NCBI RefSeq assembly: GCF_044324785.1
Contig: NZ_CP172127.1
Direction: 5' to 3' (one strand)
Length of the DNA stretch: 64,000 nt
Source: Escherichia coli
GTDB taxonomy: Bacteria; Pseudomonadota; Gammaproteobacteria; Enterobacterales; Enterobacteriaceae
Position numbers: made by a program
In this document: positions 51,801-57,800 of the stretch, piece by piece
Layout of the letters: the number at the start of each line of letters is the position of its first letter
Position numbering within the stretch: position 1 is the stretch's first letter

Positions 51801-54800
51801 CGTACGGCAGGCGTGATGACTGTACGTCATCAGACAGGCAGCAATGCCGGCGGCTTCCGGGCTCATTTCAGCGCGGTTACCGTTCATGGCATTGAACAGT
51901 ACCCATGTTTCGTCATCATCATCATCCGGTTCGGGGGCCATAAATGCCCCGCCGTTGTTCAGGGTGTACAGATTCCAGATACCACCGCAGTAGTCTTCGC
52001 ACAGACGGTCCATCCAGCCGAAGACACGGGGCTCCAGGGTCACCCACTGTGGAATGAGGCCAAAATGCTGCGGCCAGAAGCTGATGCGCTGTTCATCAGG
52101 GACGGGAGTGGCAACCAGTTGAGACTGGTTATTCCCTGATGCAGTAGTTACGGAAACAGAAGGTGTGGTGGAGCTATGCGAAAAGGTTGTCATGAGATGA
52201 TTCCTTATAAAAAGTAAATGAATGGAAGAATGCCTGGGGACTGGTACAGACGTGAGTCAGGGCTGCACTTTCAGGGAAACAGCATCAGCGCATGCTCTCC
52301 AGCAGCGTTTCTGCCATCACCCACAATGCGCGGTTGAGTTTTATATCGGTATCAATGCTGTGAATGGCCCGGGTATGGATACGTTTTCCTTTTGCACTGC
52401 GACCGGAAATCCCGCCTTTCAGCATATTCTCCTGGATGGTCTGATAAGCACTCCACAGGTCCTTACCGTAATCCTCCCGGCGTCGTGGTGTCAGAATGTC
52501 GGCGGTGGTGACGGGCTGATGTTCGTCACCATAACGGTAAGTCAGTGCCGCCTGTGCCAGCGCCTGGCGTGCCGGTGGCGGCAGGACCAGCGACTGCATG
52601 GCATCACGCTTCTCCTCTATCCGGTCAAACACGCCCACCACCTCGTAAGCCCCTTCAATGACTCTGTCCACCACATTTCCCCGGTGCGGAACACGCACTT
52701 CCCCCAGAGACTGACCGCAGACGCATCCGTTCTGGCAGACGAACCTGAAGTAACCCGGCAGCATCTGGTAGCTGGAGGTACCGTCATGAGAGTTGAGCAG
52801 AATAATTTCAGGGACATGTTGTCCGTTTATCTCCCCGTCACGGCGCAGACGCAGCATGTGTTTGGTATACCCCCGGCGGCCCGGGTCACGTACGCGGGTC
52901 TGGCAGGCGAAGAATGGCTGAAAGCCTTCCCGCTGCAGGCTTTCCAGCACGGTGATGGTGGGGATGTATGTATAGTTCCGGCTCCGGGAGGTGTGTTTAT
53001 CTTCCCCGAAAATCCCGGGCACATGGTGCATCAGCTCTTCACGGGTCAGCGGACGGTCACGGCGTATCTGGTTCGCATAACCAAAACGACTGGCTAATCG
53101 CATACTTTGCTCCTTATCAGTGGTTAAGACTGAATGACGTAATCAATGAAAAAGCCGCGTCTCACGGAGAAGACGCGGCCTGATGGATGAAATGAATGAG
53201 GGTTTACCGAAGCCCTTCAGCATTGTGGTGACGCAACCGGAAATGCGTTTCCTGGTTATCGCCGGGGCCGGTCAAAAAGCGGGGACATTCAGAACAGGCG
53301 ATCCCACAGTGTGATCAGCAGGCGGATAATGCGATCACGGGCTTTGCGCAGAAGCTGCAGCATCCAGGCCGGAAAGCTGAACCGGGCAATGGCAGCGTCA
53401 AAACTCTGGCCGATGGCGTCACCAAAAGCCTGCTGTGCGTGTTGCTGATCCTGCGCAGTGCGCTTTTCATTCCGGATATGCGAATAAACCGCGCTGGTTG
53501 CCTGTGGTGGCAGGGCGTGGATCATCAGAGACACAAATGCCGGAAGATTCCAGCCGGCAGGAGCGGCAACGGGGAGTACCGGAAATGATGAAGGGAACAG
53601 GGTTGCCACCCGGGCTGTCACCGTCGCCAGCGAGAGTTCCTGGTGACGGGACGGGCATTTTTCTGTGTCGTTCCATTCTTCAGCAGGAAATACGCGATCG
53701 GCATGGCTGAGAACAAACAGAAAACGCGAGGGATCTGCACCTTCATTCAGTAAAAACTGATGCATGGCGATGTCGGCAGCATACGCACGTTCATCAGCCC
53801 GCAGGATCCAGATAATCAGATCCAGTTCGGGCAGTAACTGACTGTAAAGTGCCCGGTATTCCTGATCATGCTGTGGTGTTTCGCCAGTGCCGGGCAGATC
53901 GACCAGCGTCATTCTTCGTTCACCGGGCTGAAAGGTAAGACGATGAGCCTGACGGGTGCAGCCGTTCAGCGGATGCGTGGCGCAGACACGGGACTGAAAA
54001 ATGGCATTGCACAGGCTGCTTTTTCCGGCACCGGATTTACCCATAATGCCAATCACGGGCTCGTAATGAATAACACTGTGGAGATGTTCAAGGATTTTCT
54101 GGCGAATTTCTTCAGGAAGAAACGTCAGATATGATTTCACTTGTGCGGAGAGGGAAGAATGGCTGAATGACATACCGGTATCCTGTTGATTTCACTGAAC
54201 CGGATCACACTAATCCGGTTTATCATTCAGGTAATATGGGCGTGAAAAAATCTGGAGTGACAAAGTTCGGGAGGAGTGATGGCATCACTGTCGATTAATA
54301 CGCTACGCCGAATGAGCATTTGTAAAAGTCAGGCCTGGAAAGATACCCAGCGAATACTGAAGCGTAGTGGACTTGTGTACAGAGGGGAACGGTCAGAATC
54401 GTTTGATCCTGAGAAACATTTTAATCGTTATACGGTGCGTTATCTGTACCTGCTTAACATAATTGCGCTTAAGATAAGGTCGGTTAGTAAATTTTCCTGT
54501 TGGATCGAGGTGGGACAATGCCATCGTATGACTGGTAAACATTTATCTCTTAATGCCCCGCCTTTTATGCTGATTCCGCGTAGTATCCGGAGAAAAGTGG
54601 ATGGATTCAGACAGTCAAAAGGTGAAGCAACCCCAAAATCGGCTCAACCGTTCACGGGCAGTTTGTATGAGGTTTTGAGAAAGGAGAGCGATTCAGCTAA
54701 GCTGGACGCATGGATTGCTGAACTGCCTCTGAACTTGCAGGAGGAGGGAAAGGAAATCTCAGTCATGGGATTTAGTCCACGGGCTGTGGCCCGACCTGTT

Positions 54801-57800
54801 CTTCGGTCAGCATCCCCGACGTTTGAACTGTTTTATCAGGAGTATCAATCCCTAAGATTAAAATCTGTTTTTAAATTTGAACCAAGATTTGAACAACTTT
54901 TAACAAGACTGAGCTTTAGAAAACAATCAATTCTCAGAAAACAACAATACAGGGTTAAATCGCAATTACTGGAGAGACTGGGGAATGTGTTGTTTTTCAC
55001 GTCGCTTTATAACCAGGGATGTTTAGAGGAGTTTATAAATGCACTTGTGGAAAAGGAGGACATTTATCTGAAAATGTCCCCTGGGGAGGAAAAGGTGAAA
55101 GCACACCAGAAAATGGTTAACTACATTGAAGCGTTCTGCAACAAAATGACGGAAAAATACCTGATGCCCGCAGCAAGCAGACACTACAAAAAGAAGAAAA
55201 TCGCCAGGAGCGAAAGTGGTGAAAGTTAATCCAGTCTACCGTACAGAATCAGTTGTTCCAGAATAGCCTGCTGTGTTGTTTTCCGCTCTCTGGTCAGTCT
55301 GTCCAGAGCGCTTTTTGCGGATGGCGATATCTTTACGTTGATTTGTACCCGTTTATCTTTTTTTCCATCGATAAACTGTTTTCTGAATGCATTGTGCATC
55401 TTGTCGAAAAATCTTTCTTTTGCAGCGAATCCTAGGTGAAATTCTTTTGGCGTCAGTAAACAGGGTGTGTCTGTGGGGAATAACATTTTTAGTAAAACTA
55501 CAATGGCAATATATCTTTCGTTATCATTTACAGGATTAAACCAGGAAAGATATGTGGGTGAGATACGTGCATCAATATATTCCCATGCCCATTTCAGTTG
55601 TTCGGTATTCTTTTTAAGCCATTTGGCTTCGTTTCTCTTTTCGAGTCCCAGCCAGTTTTGATGCATTATTGAGATAATCCGATCTGCTTCCCCATAAAGG
55701 ATTAACGCATTAATCCATTTCCCTATAACATTCAGTCGTGTTTCATGACTTGAAGGAATAATTGTCATGGGGTTATCCTTCATAACGATCACCCCCTTCA
55801 AGGCAGAGTTGAACTCAGATTCATTATTAAGTTTAAGTTTTTCGGGAACTGTATGAGACATAATTAACCAGAACCAGAATGCTGCAATTTCATTTTTTCT
55901 GATCCATTCAGGTATGTGATTATCTGCCAGATTATTATCATTCAATAAATGCTCAGTTGTTTTATTTTTCCAGTCATATCTATTCACGTTATAACCGCCT
56001 TTATATTGTTTCATCTGATTACGCCTCAATCGTTTTCTTTTCTGGTGATTTTCACCATCACATGTCAGTTGTATATGCAAGGGGATCAATAAAAATATCA
56101 CCCTGCAAGCACTTCAAAGCTGATTATGGGGATATTCTAGAACTATTCACAAAACTATTCCAGACATATCAAGAACTATTTCTTGACCTATTCATAATAA
56201 AATAAAACATGCTATCAACTACGGCTCATATTCTCCTTGGGGGTGTCGTTGTACTGTTCGACTGTTCTTGTGGTCAGATTAACAATCTGAAGAGTAAAAG
56301 CGACAGTAATCTGTCTGTTATAGTGGCGATAAAAACACTGAATGCGCATCCTGTATGTGAAATCCTGTCATGTAGAGCAGTAAGCAATGACAGACATGCA
56401 TGTTATATGTGAAGGGGGCCGGGAGACGACATAATCAGTATGGCTGTCATTCTGGTTGTAAAACGCGATCACTTTCCGGGGGTAAAAGATGATATGGAGG
56501 TTGACAAACGGTTTGCTTCGGATTGTCTTTTCTGGGGCCTGAAATACGAGGGCAGAAAAATAATTCCAGAGTAAATCTGCTCTGTTTTTAGGACAGAAAA
56601 CTCCATGCTGGCTGTAAAAGTGAAAAATTAACACCCAGTATGTATGGAAGTCTGAAGATGTTGAGAATGTCGGTATGATACTATATACACATATTTTACT
56701 AAGTATTTTTACTAAGCATTTCAGTAAGTGTTATACACGTATTTTCTACTAAGTGTTTTACCAGACATACACGTGTTTTCATAAACAGCCCTATAAGTGT
56801 TTTCATTAAGCATTGCTGTACACATTGCTTTGTCTGAAACACATCCAGTTTAGTAAATCTTTACGTTAGCTAAAATCAGTTTAAAGCTGCTGTAAAACCT
56901 TTCTGTTTAAGCAATCAATCTGCTATTCGATTTTACTGATGTTGCGTTTAACCTTTTCTGAGATTTCGAGTTTCGACGTTAGCATGAGAAAAGTATCTTT
57001 ACGCTAAATCAACCCGAACTTTCCTGAAGTAATCTGACGTTTTTTTCGATGTGCTTACGACGATTCTGTTAAACGACTTTCTGGATGTTTTGATAACAAT
57101 CAGATTGAGGCATTAACGATTCCTGACGTTTTCTTTTCCGTGTAAGGTCATTCTTTTTGTCATGAGGTTTCTTCTTGCATTGCGAAAGTGTGATGAACGG
57201 TTTTGGTGTTTTTGATTCAGATAAGGTTTACGTTATCGATGGTTAATCGTTTTTATGGTGCGTAGTGAAACGTAACTTTTTCAGGATGAGAAAATCGATT
57301 CTGATGTTGGTGATTTTTGTTCTTGTGGCGGGGTTTATCTGTAAACAGGTTTTAAACGTGTCATTCACATCCGTGATTGAGTTGTGTGATTAAGCTGTAG
57401 GTTTTGGGGTTGTTGTTGATTTGCATTACCAGGAAGCGTTCTGGTTGCGTTTCTGGTGTTTTGTTCGAATGTTCTGTGGATCCTTTTCCCTTCTGACTTT
57501 TCTCGTTGTCCATGTCGTTTTTAAATCCATTCGCTGTTCTTGAGTGTTTTTACCCTGCGTGTAGAATTATCTTTTCGTTCCGGGATGGTTTGTTCCGTTT
57601 CAATCACTCTTAATCAGAGAGTTGTAGCATTGCTCAATGCCGGATGCCGTAAAGTTTTACCGCGGTGATTAATGATGTGAAGTCAATCCAAATCAACGGA
57701 GATCTCTCATCATGAATCAACCAATACACAATGCTTACTGGTTATCCCGTTTTGAAAGTATTCTCAACAGTGCCCTGGCGCAGCACCGTGCCGTCTCGTT

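What the first reader, a model, noticed from the sequence alone, without database searches (positions are those of the whole stretch)
54174..56210. Uncharacterised convergent two-gene cargo locus (basic 316-aa protein plus Trp-rich protein with a C-terminal RHH) at the island's variable position
The slot directly upstream of the CP4-type GTPase is where such elements usually carry variable cargo. Here it holds two convergent genes whose stop codons overlap by 4 nt (55226-55229).

Neither product has a TM segment, a signal peptide or an enzymatic motif I recognise. The 262-aa product (from ATG 56014) ends in a ribbon-helix-helix-like segment, which is unusual because RHH domains are normally N-terminal. 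Its gene is visibly more AT-rich than its partner.

An 8-bp perfect inverted repeat (aaccggat 54197-54204 and atccggtt 54212-54219) lies in the divergent GTPase/316-aa promoter region. Candidate roles include a novel defence, abortive-infection or TA-like pair, or an element regulator.
Basis: inference. Interest (0 to 1): 0.65.

Follow-up and report, generated by a model that had tools for sequence, protein, structure and literature searches.

The report
Fast-evolving control gene pair of island
The two convergent genes are real, but they are not random cargo: they are a rapidly diverging, position-fixed pair found only in one family of E. coli/enterobacterial genomic islands, most likely a DNA-binding repressor with a swappable sensor domain plus a partner protein of a previously undescribed family.

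Summary
The sequence observations hold. Gene A (54279-55229, +, 316 aa, pI 9.9) and gene B (55226-56014, -, 262 aa, 3.8% Trp) share a TTAA stop overlap. B is more AT-rich, and the 8-bp inverted repeat exists one base to the right of where it was reported. Neither protein matches Pfam, NCBIfam, PADLOC, PHROGs or PDB above threshold. B's C-terminus is consistently RHH-like, but below threshold.

The "variable cargo" reading is not supported. An A-family gene lies divergent from the GTPase in all eight sequence-distinct A-family loci whose neighbourhood I read, down to 24-30% identity. The four allele classes I counted give about 2,100 genome hits among 5,426 complete E. coli genomes. The families are absent from phages and almost absent from plasmids. 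Both genes are under purifying selection (dN/dS 0.3-0.5) but diverge far faster than the flanking backbone. Recombination swaps B's N-terminal domain while keeping its RHH and a tandem CTATTC/GAATAG array over B's predicted promoter.

Best reading (about 0.4): an island control module in which B is a modular RHH autorepressor and A is its partner of unknown activity. Defence remains possible (about 0.2), because K-12 CP4-57 carries AbpAB and RnlAB at this position. The inverted repeat belongs to the GTPase backbone, not to the pair.

The parts
54279..55229 (+). Gene A: a 316-aa basic (pI 9.9), predicted all-helical protein. It founds a small family with no Pfam, PDB or PADLOC match. Family-conserved positions are W20, Q24, R29, P100, the I-R-R-K motif (103-106), the G-S-L-Y motif (127-130), E188/R191, F240 and L295.
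   Evidence: (only 48 representatives among 1.84 billion); dN/dS 0.43-0.53; structure model unusable (pLDDT 47)
55226..56014 (-). Gene B: a 262-aa Trp-rich protein with a helical N-terminal domain (about aa 1-205) and a C-terminal RHH-like domain. Its stop overlaps A's stop in TTAA at 55226-55229.
   Evidence: (pLDDT 66); dN/dS 0.31-0.48; no PDB or PADLOC match
55229..55363 (-). Region coding for the RHH-like DNA-binding domain of B (about aa 218-262: strand VQINVKIS, helix SAKSALDRLTRE, helix TTQQAILEQLIL). It is nearly invariant among E. coli alleles whose N-terminal domains are only about 50% identical.
   Evidence: model helices 231-244 and 248-257; dN 0.023 here against 0.515 in the N-terminal domain, window vs L005
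56130..56193 (-). Candidate B operator. Tandem CTATTC units (GAATAG on B's sense strand) lie at 56141-56148, 56153-56160, 56174-56181 and 56186-56193, with an imperfect copy at 56130-56137. They form two pairs, each 12 nt apart, with 33 nt between pairs.
   Evidence: (4 of the 9 matches in the 64-kb window fall in these 53 nt). The same unit recurs 4 times at 11-nt period in L006 and twice in L005, which share this RHH. It is absent from L003, whose RHH differs.
56123..56152 (-). Predicted sigma-70-type promoter for B (TTGTGA-18 nt-CATAAT). It overlaps the repeat units. This is a consensus match only.
54174..54256 (.). Shared backbone control region on the GTPase side. It contains the 8-bp inverted repeat (54198-54205 / 54213-54220), a longer imperfect repeat (54163-54178 / 54215-54230), and the block AGGTAATATGGGCGTGAAAAAATCTGGA (54229-54256), which is conserved even in distant islands. 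It is not part of the exchangeable cassette, whose left edge is near 54250.
53289..54173 (-). CP4-type GTPase gene (294 aa, MMR_HSR1). It is the first gene of the long minus-strand operon and the constant neighbour of A and/or B.
54250..56557 (.). Extent of the exchangeable, hypervariable segment in E. coli islands. The right edge lies between about 56190 and 56557, depending on the allele compared.

Best explanation
The pair is a conserved but fast-evolving control module of the CP4-57-like island family. It sits between the mobility genes (AlpA, YagK/YfjJ Gp2-like proteins, integrase) and the long GTPase-DUF932-antirestriction-RadC-CbeA/CbtA operon.

Proposed mechanism:
- B is a modular transcription factor. 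Its C-terminal RHH dimerises and binds the tandem GAATAG units that overlap B's own promoter, so B represses itself.
- B's large Trp-rich N-terminal domain is exchanged by recombination independently of the RHH and operator. It is the input domain, binding a partner or signal protein.
- A is an island-core protein of a new family and acts together with B.
- Because A and B face each other with no spacer, each transcript must run antisense into the other gene, so their expression is expected to be mutually antagonistic.

What is shown: position-fixed synteny, coding constraint, domain-wise mosaicism, RHH-like sequence features, and the repeat array that travels with the RHH type.

What is inferred: DNA binding, autorepression, an A-B partnership, transcriptional interference, and control of the island's life cycle.
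For: 1. Synteny. GTPase(-)|A(+)|B(-) followed by YagK_YfjJ and AlpA genes (their order varies between loci) is found in:
- four E. coli allele types;
- four distant loci: L011, L012/L013, L016-18, and L014/15, where an IS replaces the GTPase.
In the distant loci, for which a GTPase is present in three of the four, A is 24-38% and B 20-34% identical to the E. coli alleles, while the GTPase is 56-71%.

2. Occupancy. Among 5,426 complete E. coli genomes, counts at >=80% query cover were:
- window-type pair: 496 genomes;
- L003-type pair: 189;
- the two single-gene A-like forms: 968 and 458.
The shared 75-nt backbone is seen in about 1,865 genomes, some with several islands.

3. Context specificity. 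There are no hits in 50,697 phage records, one in IMG/VR, and 2-4 in 72,556 plasmids.

4. Coding constraint. dN/dS is 0.43-0.53 for A and 0.31-0.48 for B, against 0.16-0.21 for the GTPase.

5. Modularity. Window vs L005 is 89-95% identical across A's 3' end plus the RHH region (54889-55389). Identity falls to 37-63% across B's N-terminal domain and promoter, then returns to >=94%. In the RHH, dN is 0.023 and dS 0.24; in the N-terminal domain, dN is 0.515 and dS 1.87.

6. RHH. The top three PDB profile hits are all RHH proteins (CopG twice, ORF56). RHH_1 or RepB-RCR_reg is hit in 3-5 of 7 C-termini, and one allele hits the Arc-like PHROG.

7. Operator. The CTATTC array is present in all three loci that share this RHH, at 11-12-nt spacing. 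It is absent where the RHH differs, and it overlaps the predicted promoter.

8. Substitution logic. E. coli islands without B have an A-like protein carrying an extra N-terminal CxxxxC...CxxH module (HMM E 6e-15 and about 3e-7). Klebsiella islands keep B directly upstream of the GTPase and lack A.
Against: - No RHH hit reaches a curated threshold: the best is 17.3 bits against a cut-off of 20.5.
- DNA binding, promoter activity and any A-B contact are untested.
- A's biochemical activity is entirely unknown.
- B's N-terminal domain does not co-vary with A's C-terminal half. In window vs L005, A residues 186-316 have dN 0.07 while B's N-terminal domain has dN 0.5. This is not what a tight A-B specificity pair would predict.
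- Either gene can be missing, so they are not an obligate pair.
- Fast evolution, low GC and replacement by AbpAB/RnlAB in K-12 fit a conflict function equally well.
- The repeat pattern was defined after looking at the sequence. Repeat evidence in the distant loci is mixed.
Confidence: 0.4

Rival explanations
1. A and B, possibly with the adjacent GTPase, form a previously undescribed anti-phage or anti-plasmid defence or abortive-infection system. B's hypervariable N-terminal domain senses an invader protein, and A or the GTPase is the effector.
For: - The same position in K-12 CP4-57 holds the known defence genes abpBA and rnlAB.
- A and B evolve much faster than the flanks and exist as many alleles exchanged by recombination.
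- GC content is low.
- The GTPase has a weak partial match to PADLOC LeoBC (E 7e-7 over about 100 residues).
Against: - No PADLOC hit for any of the 22 A-family or 9 B-family members.
- The genes are never seen outside this one island position. They are absent from phages and almost absent from plasmids. Their divergence tracks the island backbone, unlike cassettes that hop between hotspots.
- No recognisable effector domain, and no conserved acidic/His catalytic constellation in A.
- PADLOC-DB 2.0 dates from 2023, so newer systems were not tested.
Confidence: 0.2
2. B is a relaxosome or replication accessory protein and A is a DNA-processing cofactor for mobilisation of the island. B would resemble VirC2, TraY or CopG: an RHH that binds repeats near an origin and works with an NTPase and with the Gp2-like HUH initiator.
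For: - Weak best matches of the RHH are to plasmid copy-control repressors: CopG, RepB-RCR_reg and RepA2.
- The pair lies next to about 1.15 kb of conserved AT-rich non-coding DNA with iteron-like TAAGTGTTTT repeats, upstream of a YagK/YfjJ (REP_ORF2-G2P) gene.
- A P-loop GTPase is the constant neighbour.
- Both proteins are basic.
Against: - The CTATTC units occur as an array only at B's own promoter; the single copy in the iteron region (56923) is isolated.
- B is absent from about two thirds of the E. coli islands that keep the same AT-rich region and Gp2-like gene.
- Klebsiella islands place B beside the GTPase, away from any Gp2-like gene.
- No similarity of A to any relaxase, primase or Rep.
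Confidence: 0.12
3. A is a toxin and B is its RHH antitoxin, together forming a TA-like addiction module that stabilises the island.
For: - Many type II antitoxins use RHH domains and autoregulate. One C-terminus weakly hits Antitox_RHH and HicB_lk_antitox.
- The island already carries a CbtA/CbeA TA pair.
- A is strongly basic.
Against: - The genes are convergent, not co-transcribed.
- Both proteins are far larger than typical TA components.
- No toxin family is hit.
- A-like genes exist without B in about 1,400 E. coli genomes. A free toxin would not tolerate this unless the added Cys/His module neutralises it.
- B exists without A in Klebsiella.
Confidence: 0.07

Closest known systems
CopG/Arc/MetJ-type ribbon-helix-helix repressors (Pfam RHH_1, RepB-RCR_reg; PDB 2cpg)
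   Same: B's last ~45 residues have the strand-helix-helix pattern, with alternating polar residues in the strand (Q-N-K). These proteins are the best, though weak, hits in Pfam, PHROGs and PDB. A tandem short-repeat array at about one helical turn overlaps B's promoter, as is usual for RHH operators (RHH operator architecture is established knowledge).
   Different: All scores are below the curated thresholds. The RHH follows a ~205-residue Trp-rich helical domain with no known relative, whereas CopG and Arc are ~45-55-residue stand-alone proteins. The Gly of the usual G-x-S/T turn is missing in the E. coli alleles.
Master repressors with a swappable sensor domain in phage-related islands (SaPI Stl) and phage immunity regions (established knowledge; not tested by homology)
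   Same: B lies at the junction of two divergently organised modules of an integrative island. It has a conserved DNA-binding part and operator with a highly divergent second domain exchanged by recombination. Several alleles coexist in one species.
   Different: B has an RHH rather than an HTH and shares no sequence similarity with Stl. No inducing helper is known. The partner gene A and the convergent, overlapping arrangement have no counterpart there. Function is untested.
VirC2 of Ti plasmids, and HicB/ParG-type proteins with a C-terminal RHH (established knowledge)
   Same: These show that an RHH at the C-terminus of a larger protein is a known architecture. VirC2 also works beside a P-loop NTPase near a DNA-processing origin.
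   Different: No detectable sequence similarity of B's N-terminal domain to any of them. No ParA-type partner. The operator-like repeats lie at B's own promoter.
Cargo at the same position in E. coli K-12 CP4-57: AbpAB and the RnlAB toxin-antitoxin
   Same: Same interval, between the YfjJ-type gene and the GTPase (yfjP) of a related island.
   Different: These genes are unrelated in sequence, and no A or B remnant remains in K-12. Those systems also occur in other contexts, whereas A and B are tied to this one position in this island family.

Membership tests
Ribbon-helix-helix (CopG/Arc/MetJ) DNA-binding domain | Significant match to an RHH profile (Pfam RHH_1 gathering score 20.5 bits) | tested here: not met
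   Best 17.3 bits (E 0.0045) for the isolated C-terminus and 13.3 bits for the full protein. PDB profile search gives CopG at E 0.09. The hits are consistently RHH but sub-threshold.
Ribbon-helix-helix (CopG/Arc/MetJ) DNA-binding domain | Strand-helix-helix of ~45 residues with alternating polar residues in the strand | tested here: met
   The segment VQINVKIS / SAKSALDRLTRE / TTQQAILEQLIL is conserved across 9 family members. The model has helices 231-244 and 248-257 after an extended segment. Strand pairing needs a dimer, which was not modelled.
Ribbon-helix-helix (CopG/Arc/MetJ) DNA-binding domain | Binds short repeated operator sites, usually at its own promoter | tested here: inconclusive
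   CTATTC tandem arrays lie upstream of B in the three loci with the same RHH and are absent from the locus with a different RHH. Binding itself cannot be tested here.
Type II toxin-antitoxin module | Two small co-directional, co-transcribed genes | tested here: not met
   The genes are convergent in all 8 sequence-distinct A-family loci read. The proteins are 316 and 262 aa.
Type II toxin-antitoxin module | Toxin belongs to a recognised toxin fold or family and is never found without its antitoxin | tested here: not met
   No toxin family is hit. A-like genes occur without B in 968 + 458 E. coli genomes, and B occurs without A in Klebsiella.
Known anti-phage defence systems (PADLOC-DB 2.0) | Match of the component proteins to a defence-system HMM | tested here: not met
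   0 hits for window A and B. Across 22 A-family members, only two isolated chance-level hits (E > 0.01). 0 hits for 9 B-family members. Systems described after 2023 were not covered.
Known anti-phage defence systems (PADLOC-DB 2.0) | Protection against phage when expressed | not testable with these tools
   Needs plaque assays.
Variable cargo of an island hotspot | Unrelated gene sets at the same site in closely related elements, and the genes also occur in other contexts | tested here: not met
   An A-family gene is present in all 12 E. coli or distant islands read that carry an A-family gene or this GTPase-side backbone. The exceptions found are K-12 CP4-57, which holds AbpAB/RnlAB, and the Klebsiella islands, which keep B but lack A. 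The families are absent from phages and near-absent from plasmids.
Stl-like modular master repressor of an integrative island | Constant DNA-binding part with a variable sensor part, located at the control junction of the element | tested here: met
   Mosaic break at the RHH/N-domain boundary. The pair lies between the AlpA/YagK module and the GTPase operon.
Stl-like modular master repressor of an integrative island | Represses island genes and is relieved by a helper-encoded protein | not testable with these tools
   Needs genetics; no helper is known.

The most novel reading that the evidence does not exclude
A, B and the adjacent GTPase form a new kind of island-encoded sensor switch. B's hypervariable N-terminal domain would recognise proteins of incoming phages or conjugative plasmids. 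This would release repression, so the island either fires its GTPase-antirestriction-RadC-CbtA operon as an interference or immunity response, or excises to hitch a ride. A would be the effector or anti-repressor, from a protein family with no known relatives.
Probability: 0.15. Interest if true: 0.8.

Novelty: new variant of a known kind. Interest (0 to 1): 0.5.

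Why it matters
CP4-57/CP4-44/CP4-6-like islands are among the commonest accessory elements in E. coli. The backbone next to this pair is in about a third of complete genomes. Yet what switches them on, and what most of their conserved genes do, is unknown.

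This work turns two 'hypothetical proteins' into a defined, position-fixed module. B is a probable RHH repressor with an identifiable candidate operator and a recombination-swapped input domain. A is a partner from an undescribed family of only about 50 representatives among 1.84 billion proteins.

If B senses a helper phage or plasmid, the allelic series would give a direct handle on the inducers and host range of these islands. If the pair instead proves defensive, it would be a new system. Either way, the operator, promoter and allele boundaries given here make the question directly testable.

Tried and rejected
Sequence and profile searches that found nothing:
- Pfam, NCBIfam, PADLOC and PHROGs scans of A, B, their divergent alleles and distant relatives gave nothing above threshold.
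- PDB sequence and profile searches with four alignments gave only weak RHH hits for B's C-terminus and a spurious designed-protein hit for A.
- Rfam on 53000-60000 gave only one chance-level hit.
- Profile-profile comparison shows A and B are not related to each other.

Structure:
- AlphaFold2 models were built from shallow alignments made before the distant relatives were found. A reached pLDDT 47, B 66.

Literature:
- Searches by RefSeq accession of six alleles and by island gene names gave no paper on these genes.
- One preprint describes related Pseudomonas islands with an AlpA/Gp2-like/RadC core and defence cargo (10.1101/2024.08.29.610337), but not these proteins.

Collection scans:
- The scan of one genome per species found one hit, on a contig of a MAG labelled Oliverpabstia; I suspect it is an E. 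coli contaminant, but did not check.
- The IMG/VR scan with the broad alignment failed for lack of a conserved stretch. The narrow alignment found one contig.

Ideas considered and dropped:
- A as a tyrosine recombinase or topoisomerase-like enzyme, based on the conserved RRK...Y. The spacing (25 residues) and the lack of the other catalytic residues do not fit.
- The inverted repeat as an intrinsic terminator. In E. coli there is no T-run on either strand.

Full report
**1. What is at the coordinates**

The window is E. coli DNA. The 2,037-nt finding is 100% identical to many complete E. coli chromosomes. It lies in a CP4-57/CP4-44-like island. The minus-strand genes, from right to left:
- GTPase (53289-54173)
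- DUF932
- antirestriction
- JAB/RadC
- DUF987
- YeeU/CbtA
- DUF4942

To the right lie a YagK/YfjJ (inovirus Gp2-like) gene, an AlpA gene and an IS3.

Gene A is 54279-55229 (+, 316 aa). Gene B is 55226-56014 (-, 262 aa). Their stops share TTAA at 55226-55229. RefSeq calls both 'hypothetical protein'.
- A is basic (pI 9.9).
- B has pI 9.5 and 10 Trp.
- GC is 43% for A, 37% for B and 54% for the GTPase gene.

**2. Are they genes?**

Yes. Against three other E. coli alleles, dN/dS is 0.43-0.53 for A and 0.31-0.48 for B. This is below 1 but higher than the GTPase (0.16-0.21). Start codons with Shine-Dalgarno sequences are conserved between alleles.

**3. No known family**

- A has no match in Pfam, NCBIfam, PADLOC or PDB, and only a chance-level PHROG hit of unknown function (E 0.15).
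- B matches nothing over its first ~205 residues.
- B's C-terminus gives consistent but sub-threshold RHH hits. These are RHH_1 at 17.3 bits against a cut-off of 20.5, RepB-RCR_reg, CopG and ORF56 as the top PDB profile hits, and Arc-like PHROG for the L003 allele.
- The AlphaFold models were poor because they were built from shallow alignments: pLDDT 47 for A and 66 for B. Fold searches returned only generic helical bundles.

**4. The pair is not random cargo**

*Boundaries.* Only the first ~75 nt of the finding, including the inverted repeat, are shared island backbone, found in about 1,865 of 5,426 complete E. coli genomes. Backbone resumes to the right between about 56190 and 56557, depending on the allele compared.

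*What fills the interval in E. coli.*
- Allelic A/B pairs, always with the same orientation and the same 4-nt stop overlap (L003-L006).
- A single plus-strand gene of 376 or 407 aa (L007-L010).

The single genes are distant A-family members. HMM E-values are 6e-15 and about 3e-7, and BLASTP gives 25% identity over A residues 13-149. They carry an extra ~100-residue N-terminal CxxxxC...CxxH module, and these islands have no B.

*Genomes with >=80% query cover.*

| Form | Genomes |
|---|---|
| Window-type pair | 496 |
| L003-type pair | 189 |
| 407-aa single form | 968 |
| 376-aa single form | 458 |

*Deep search.* A profile search of 1.84 billion representatives found only 48 relatives of A, about 17 of them full length. 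I inspected the context of four of these, down to E 4e-4. In every case A is followed by a convergent B homologue and then by YagK_YfjJ and AlpA genes; three of the four also keep the GTPase(-) to its left, and in the fourth an IS replaces it.

*Klebsiella.* In Klebsiella pneumoniae-complex islands a 362-aa B homologue lies directly upstream of, and co-directional with, the GTPase. There is no A.

*Other contexts.* Neither protein occurs in 50,697 phage records. There is one IMG/VR contig and 2-4 plasmids.

*The exception.* K-12 CP4-57 has abpBA, yfjM and rnlAB in this interval and no remnant of A or B. So the position can take cargo. Even so, A and B behave as fast-evolving core genes of the island family.

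**5. Pattern of divergence**

| Comparison with the window | GTPase | Gp2-like | A | B |
|---|---|---|---|---|
| Within E. coli | 90-92% | 88-100% | 55-76% | 26-70% |
| Distant islands | 57-70% | 34-37% | 27-33% | 24-34% |

All values are amino-acid identities.

The divergence is mosaic. In window vs L005, A's 3' end plus the RHH-coding part of B (54889-55389) is 89-95% identical. B's N-terminal domain and its promoter region are 37-63% identical, and identity returns to >=94% at about 56289. In the RHH, dN is 0.023; in the N-terminal domain it is 0.515. B's N-terminal domain is therefore exchanged as a unit while the DNA-binding end is kept.

**6. Candidate operator**

Upstream of B lie four CTATTC units at 56141, 56153, 56174 and 56186, plus an imperfect one at 56130. 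On B's strand they read GAATAG. Four of the nine matches to the 8-mer pattern in the whole 64-kb window fall in these 53 nt.

| Locus | RHH | CTATTC/GAATAG units |
|---|---|---|
| Window | reference | 4 plus 1 imperfect, in two pairs 12 nt apart |
| L006 | near-identical | 4, at exactly 11-nt period |
| L005 | near-identical | 2, at 11 nt |
| L003 | different | none; an unrelated palindrome instead |

A consensus promoter for B (TTGTGA-18-CATAAT, 56152->56123) overlaps the units. This fits autoregulation by an RHH. The pattern was defined post hoc, and repeats in the distant loci are less clear.

**7. The inverted repeat belongs to the GTPase side**

- It is constant in E. coli whatever the A/B allele.
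- Distant islands have a different inverted repeat at the same place, with some compensatory changes. Next to it is a strongly conserved block, AGGTAATATGGGCGTGAnATTTTCTGGA.
- Klebsiella islands, which lack A, keep part of the block (CCTATATTAC on the GTPase strand), followed by a hairpin before the GTPase start.

The repeat is therefore part of the GTPase operon's 5' control region. It could be an operator or a 5'-UTR hairpin; I could not decide which.

**8. Convergent arrangement**

In all E. coli alleles the stops overlap (TTAA), even where the flanking sequence differs. In distant islands a 16-122-nt spacer, with a hairpin visible in at least two of the four, separates the genes. In the window the only terminator-like sites downstream of B lie inside A's last 65 nt. 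The first such site downstream of A is about 390 nt into B. Antisense overlap of the two transcripts is therefore likely. This is inference.

**9. Interpretation**

| Reading | Confidence | Main basis |
|---|---|---|
| Island control module: B is a modular RHH autorepressor with a swappable input domain; A is a partner of unknown activity | about 0.4 | Sections 4-8 |
| New defence or interference system | about 0.2 | Fast evolution, low GC, K-12 precedent at this site, weak LeoBC-like match of the GTPase |
| Relaxosome or replication accessory role | about 0.12 | RHH resembles plasmid copy-control repressors; adjacent iteron-bearing AT-rich region |
| TA-like pair | about 0.07 | Convergent orientation, large size and frequent solo occurrence argue against it |

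The control-module reading is also consistent with the observation that B-less islands give A an added Cys/His module. That module may replace B's DNA-binding role; this is inference.

**10. Verdict**

The observations are confirmed, apart from a one-base offset in the repeat coordinates. 'Variable cargo', 'defence' and 'TA' are not supported by the tests available. 'Element regulator' is the favoured reading. The families are undescribed, so this is a new variant of a known kind of system: an RHH-based control module of a mobile element. Interest is moderate, and higher if B's variable domain proves to sense helper or invader proteins.

Noticed in passing
window 56557-57711: About 1.15 kb of AT-rich DNA (about 38% GC) with no conserved ORF, between B and the YagK/YfjJ (Gp2-like) gene. 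It is conserved at 75-100% in all E. coli islands examined, whatever fills the A/B slot. It carries an iteron-like array: the only four perfect TAAGTRTTWT matches in the 64-kb window lie at 56700, 56725, 56750 and 56794. It may be an origin, an oriT or a regulatory region for the Gp2-like HUH protein.
   Followed up: partly
window 54229-54256; also L011, L012, L016, L020: The block AGGTAATATGGGCGTGAnATTTTCTGGA next to the inverted repeat is almost invariant between islands whose GTPases are only 55-70% identical. Klebsiella islands lacking gene A keep CCTATATTAC plus a hairpin ahead of the GTPase start. It is probably the promoter or 5'-UTR control element of the long GTPase operon.
   Followed up: partly
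L007 7185-8315; L008/L009/L010 7101-8324: In 968 + 458 complete E. coli genomes the slot holds a single 407- or 376-aa 'hypothetical protein'. It is a distant A-family member with an added N-terminal CxxxxC...CxxH module and a distinct C-terminal tail (L[IV][DN][IL]YNS[CF]F...). These islands have no B gene.
   Followed up: partly
L019 (E. coli K-12 MG1655, NC_000913.3 2761351-2767355): K-12 CP4-57 carries abpB, abpA, yfjM, rnlA and rnlB between yfjJ and the GTPase yfjP, with no A or B remnant. The interval can therefore be taken over by defence cargo.
   Followed up: yes
window 53104-53288, compared with L001 13062-14115: In the window the GTPase is followed directly by the DUF932 gene. L001 is otherwise identical over the A/B locus, and it and most other islands have a DUF905 gene, a 225-aa hypothetical and often a WYL/HTH regulator in between. 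The window's island appears to have lost that segment.
   Followed up: no
window 61296-62569 and 63341-63991: An IS3-family transposase pair (rve plus HTH_Tnp_1) and an HNH_2 endonuclease ORF lie to the right of the AlpA/YagK region. No tRNA gene is present anywhere in the window, and the search for integrase-type domains found only the IS3 rve domain among the ten flanking ORFs scanned. The island's integration end is therefore either outside the window or disrupted.
   Followed up: no
window 53289-54173 (GTPase): Residues 185-284 of the island GTPase give a partial match (E 7e-7) to the PADLOC model LeoBC, a dynamin-like GTPase of a defence system, besides the expected MMR_HSR1 and Dynamin_N hits. 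The match covers only about 90 of 601 profile positions.
   Followed up: no
L012-L018 (CP011132.1 and metagenome contigs): Distant islands of the same family carry two or more YagK_YfjJ paralogues, DUF7828/Zn_ribbon_11 genes and, downstream of the GTPase, WYL and DUF4234-like genes. One carries arsenic-resistance cargo.
   Followed up: no
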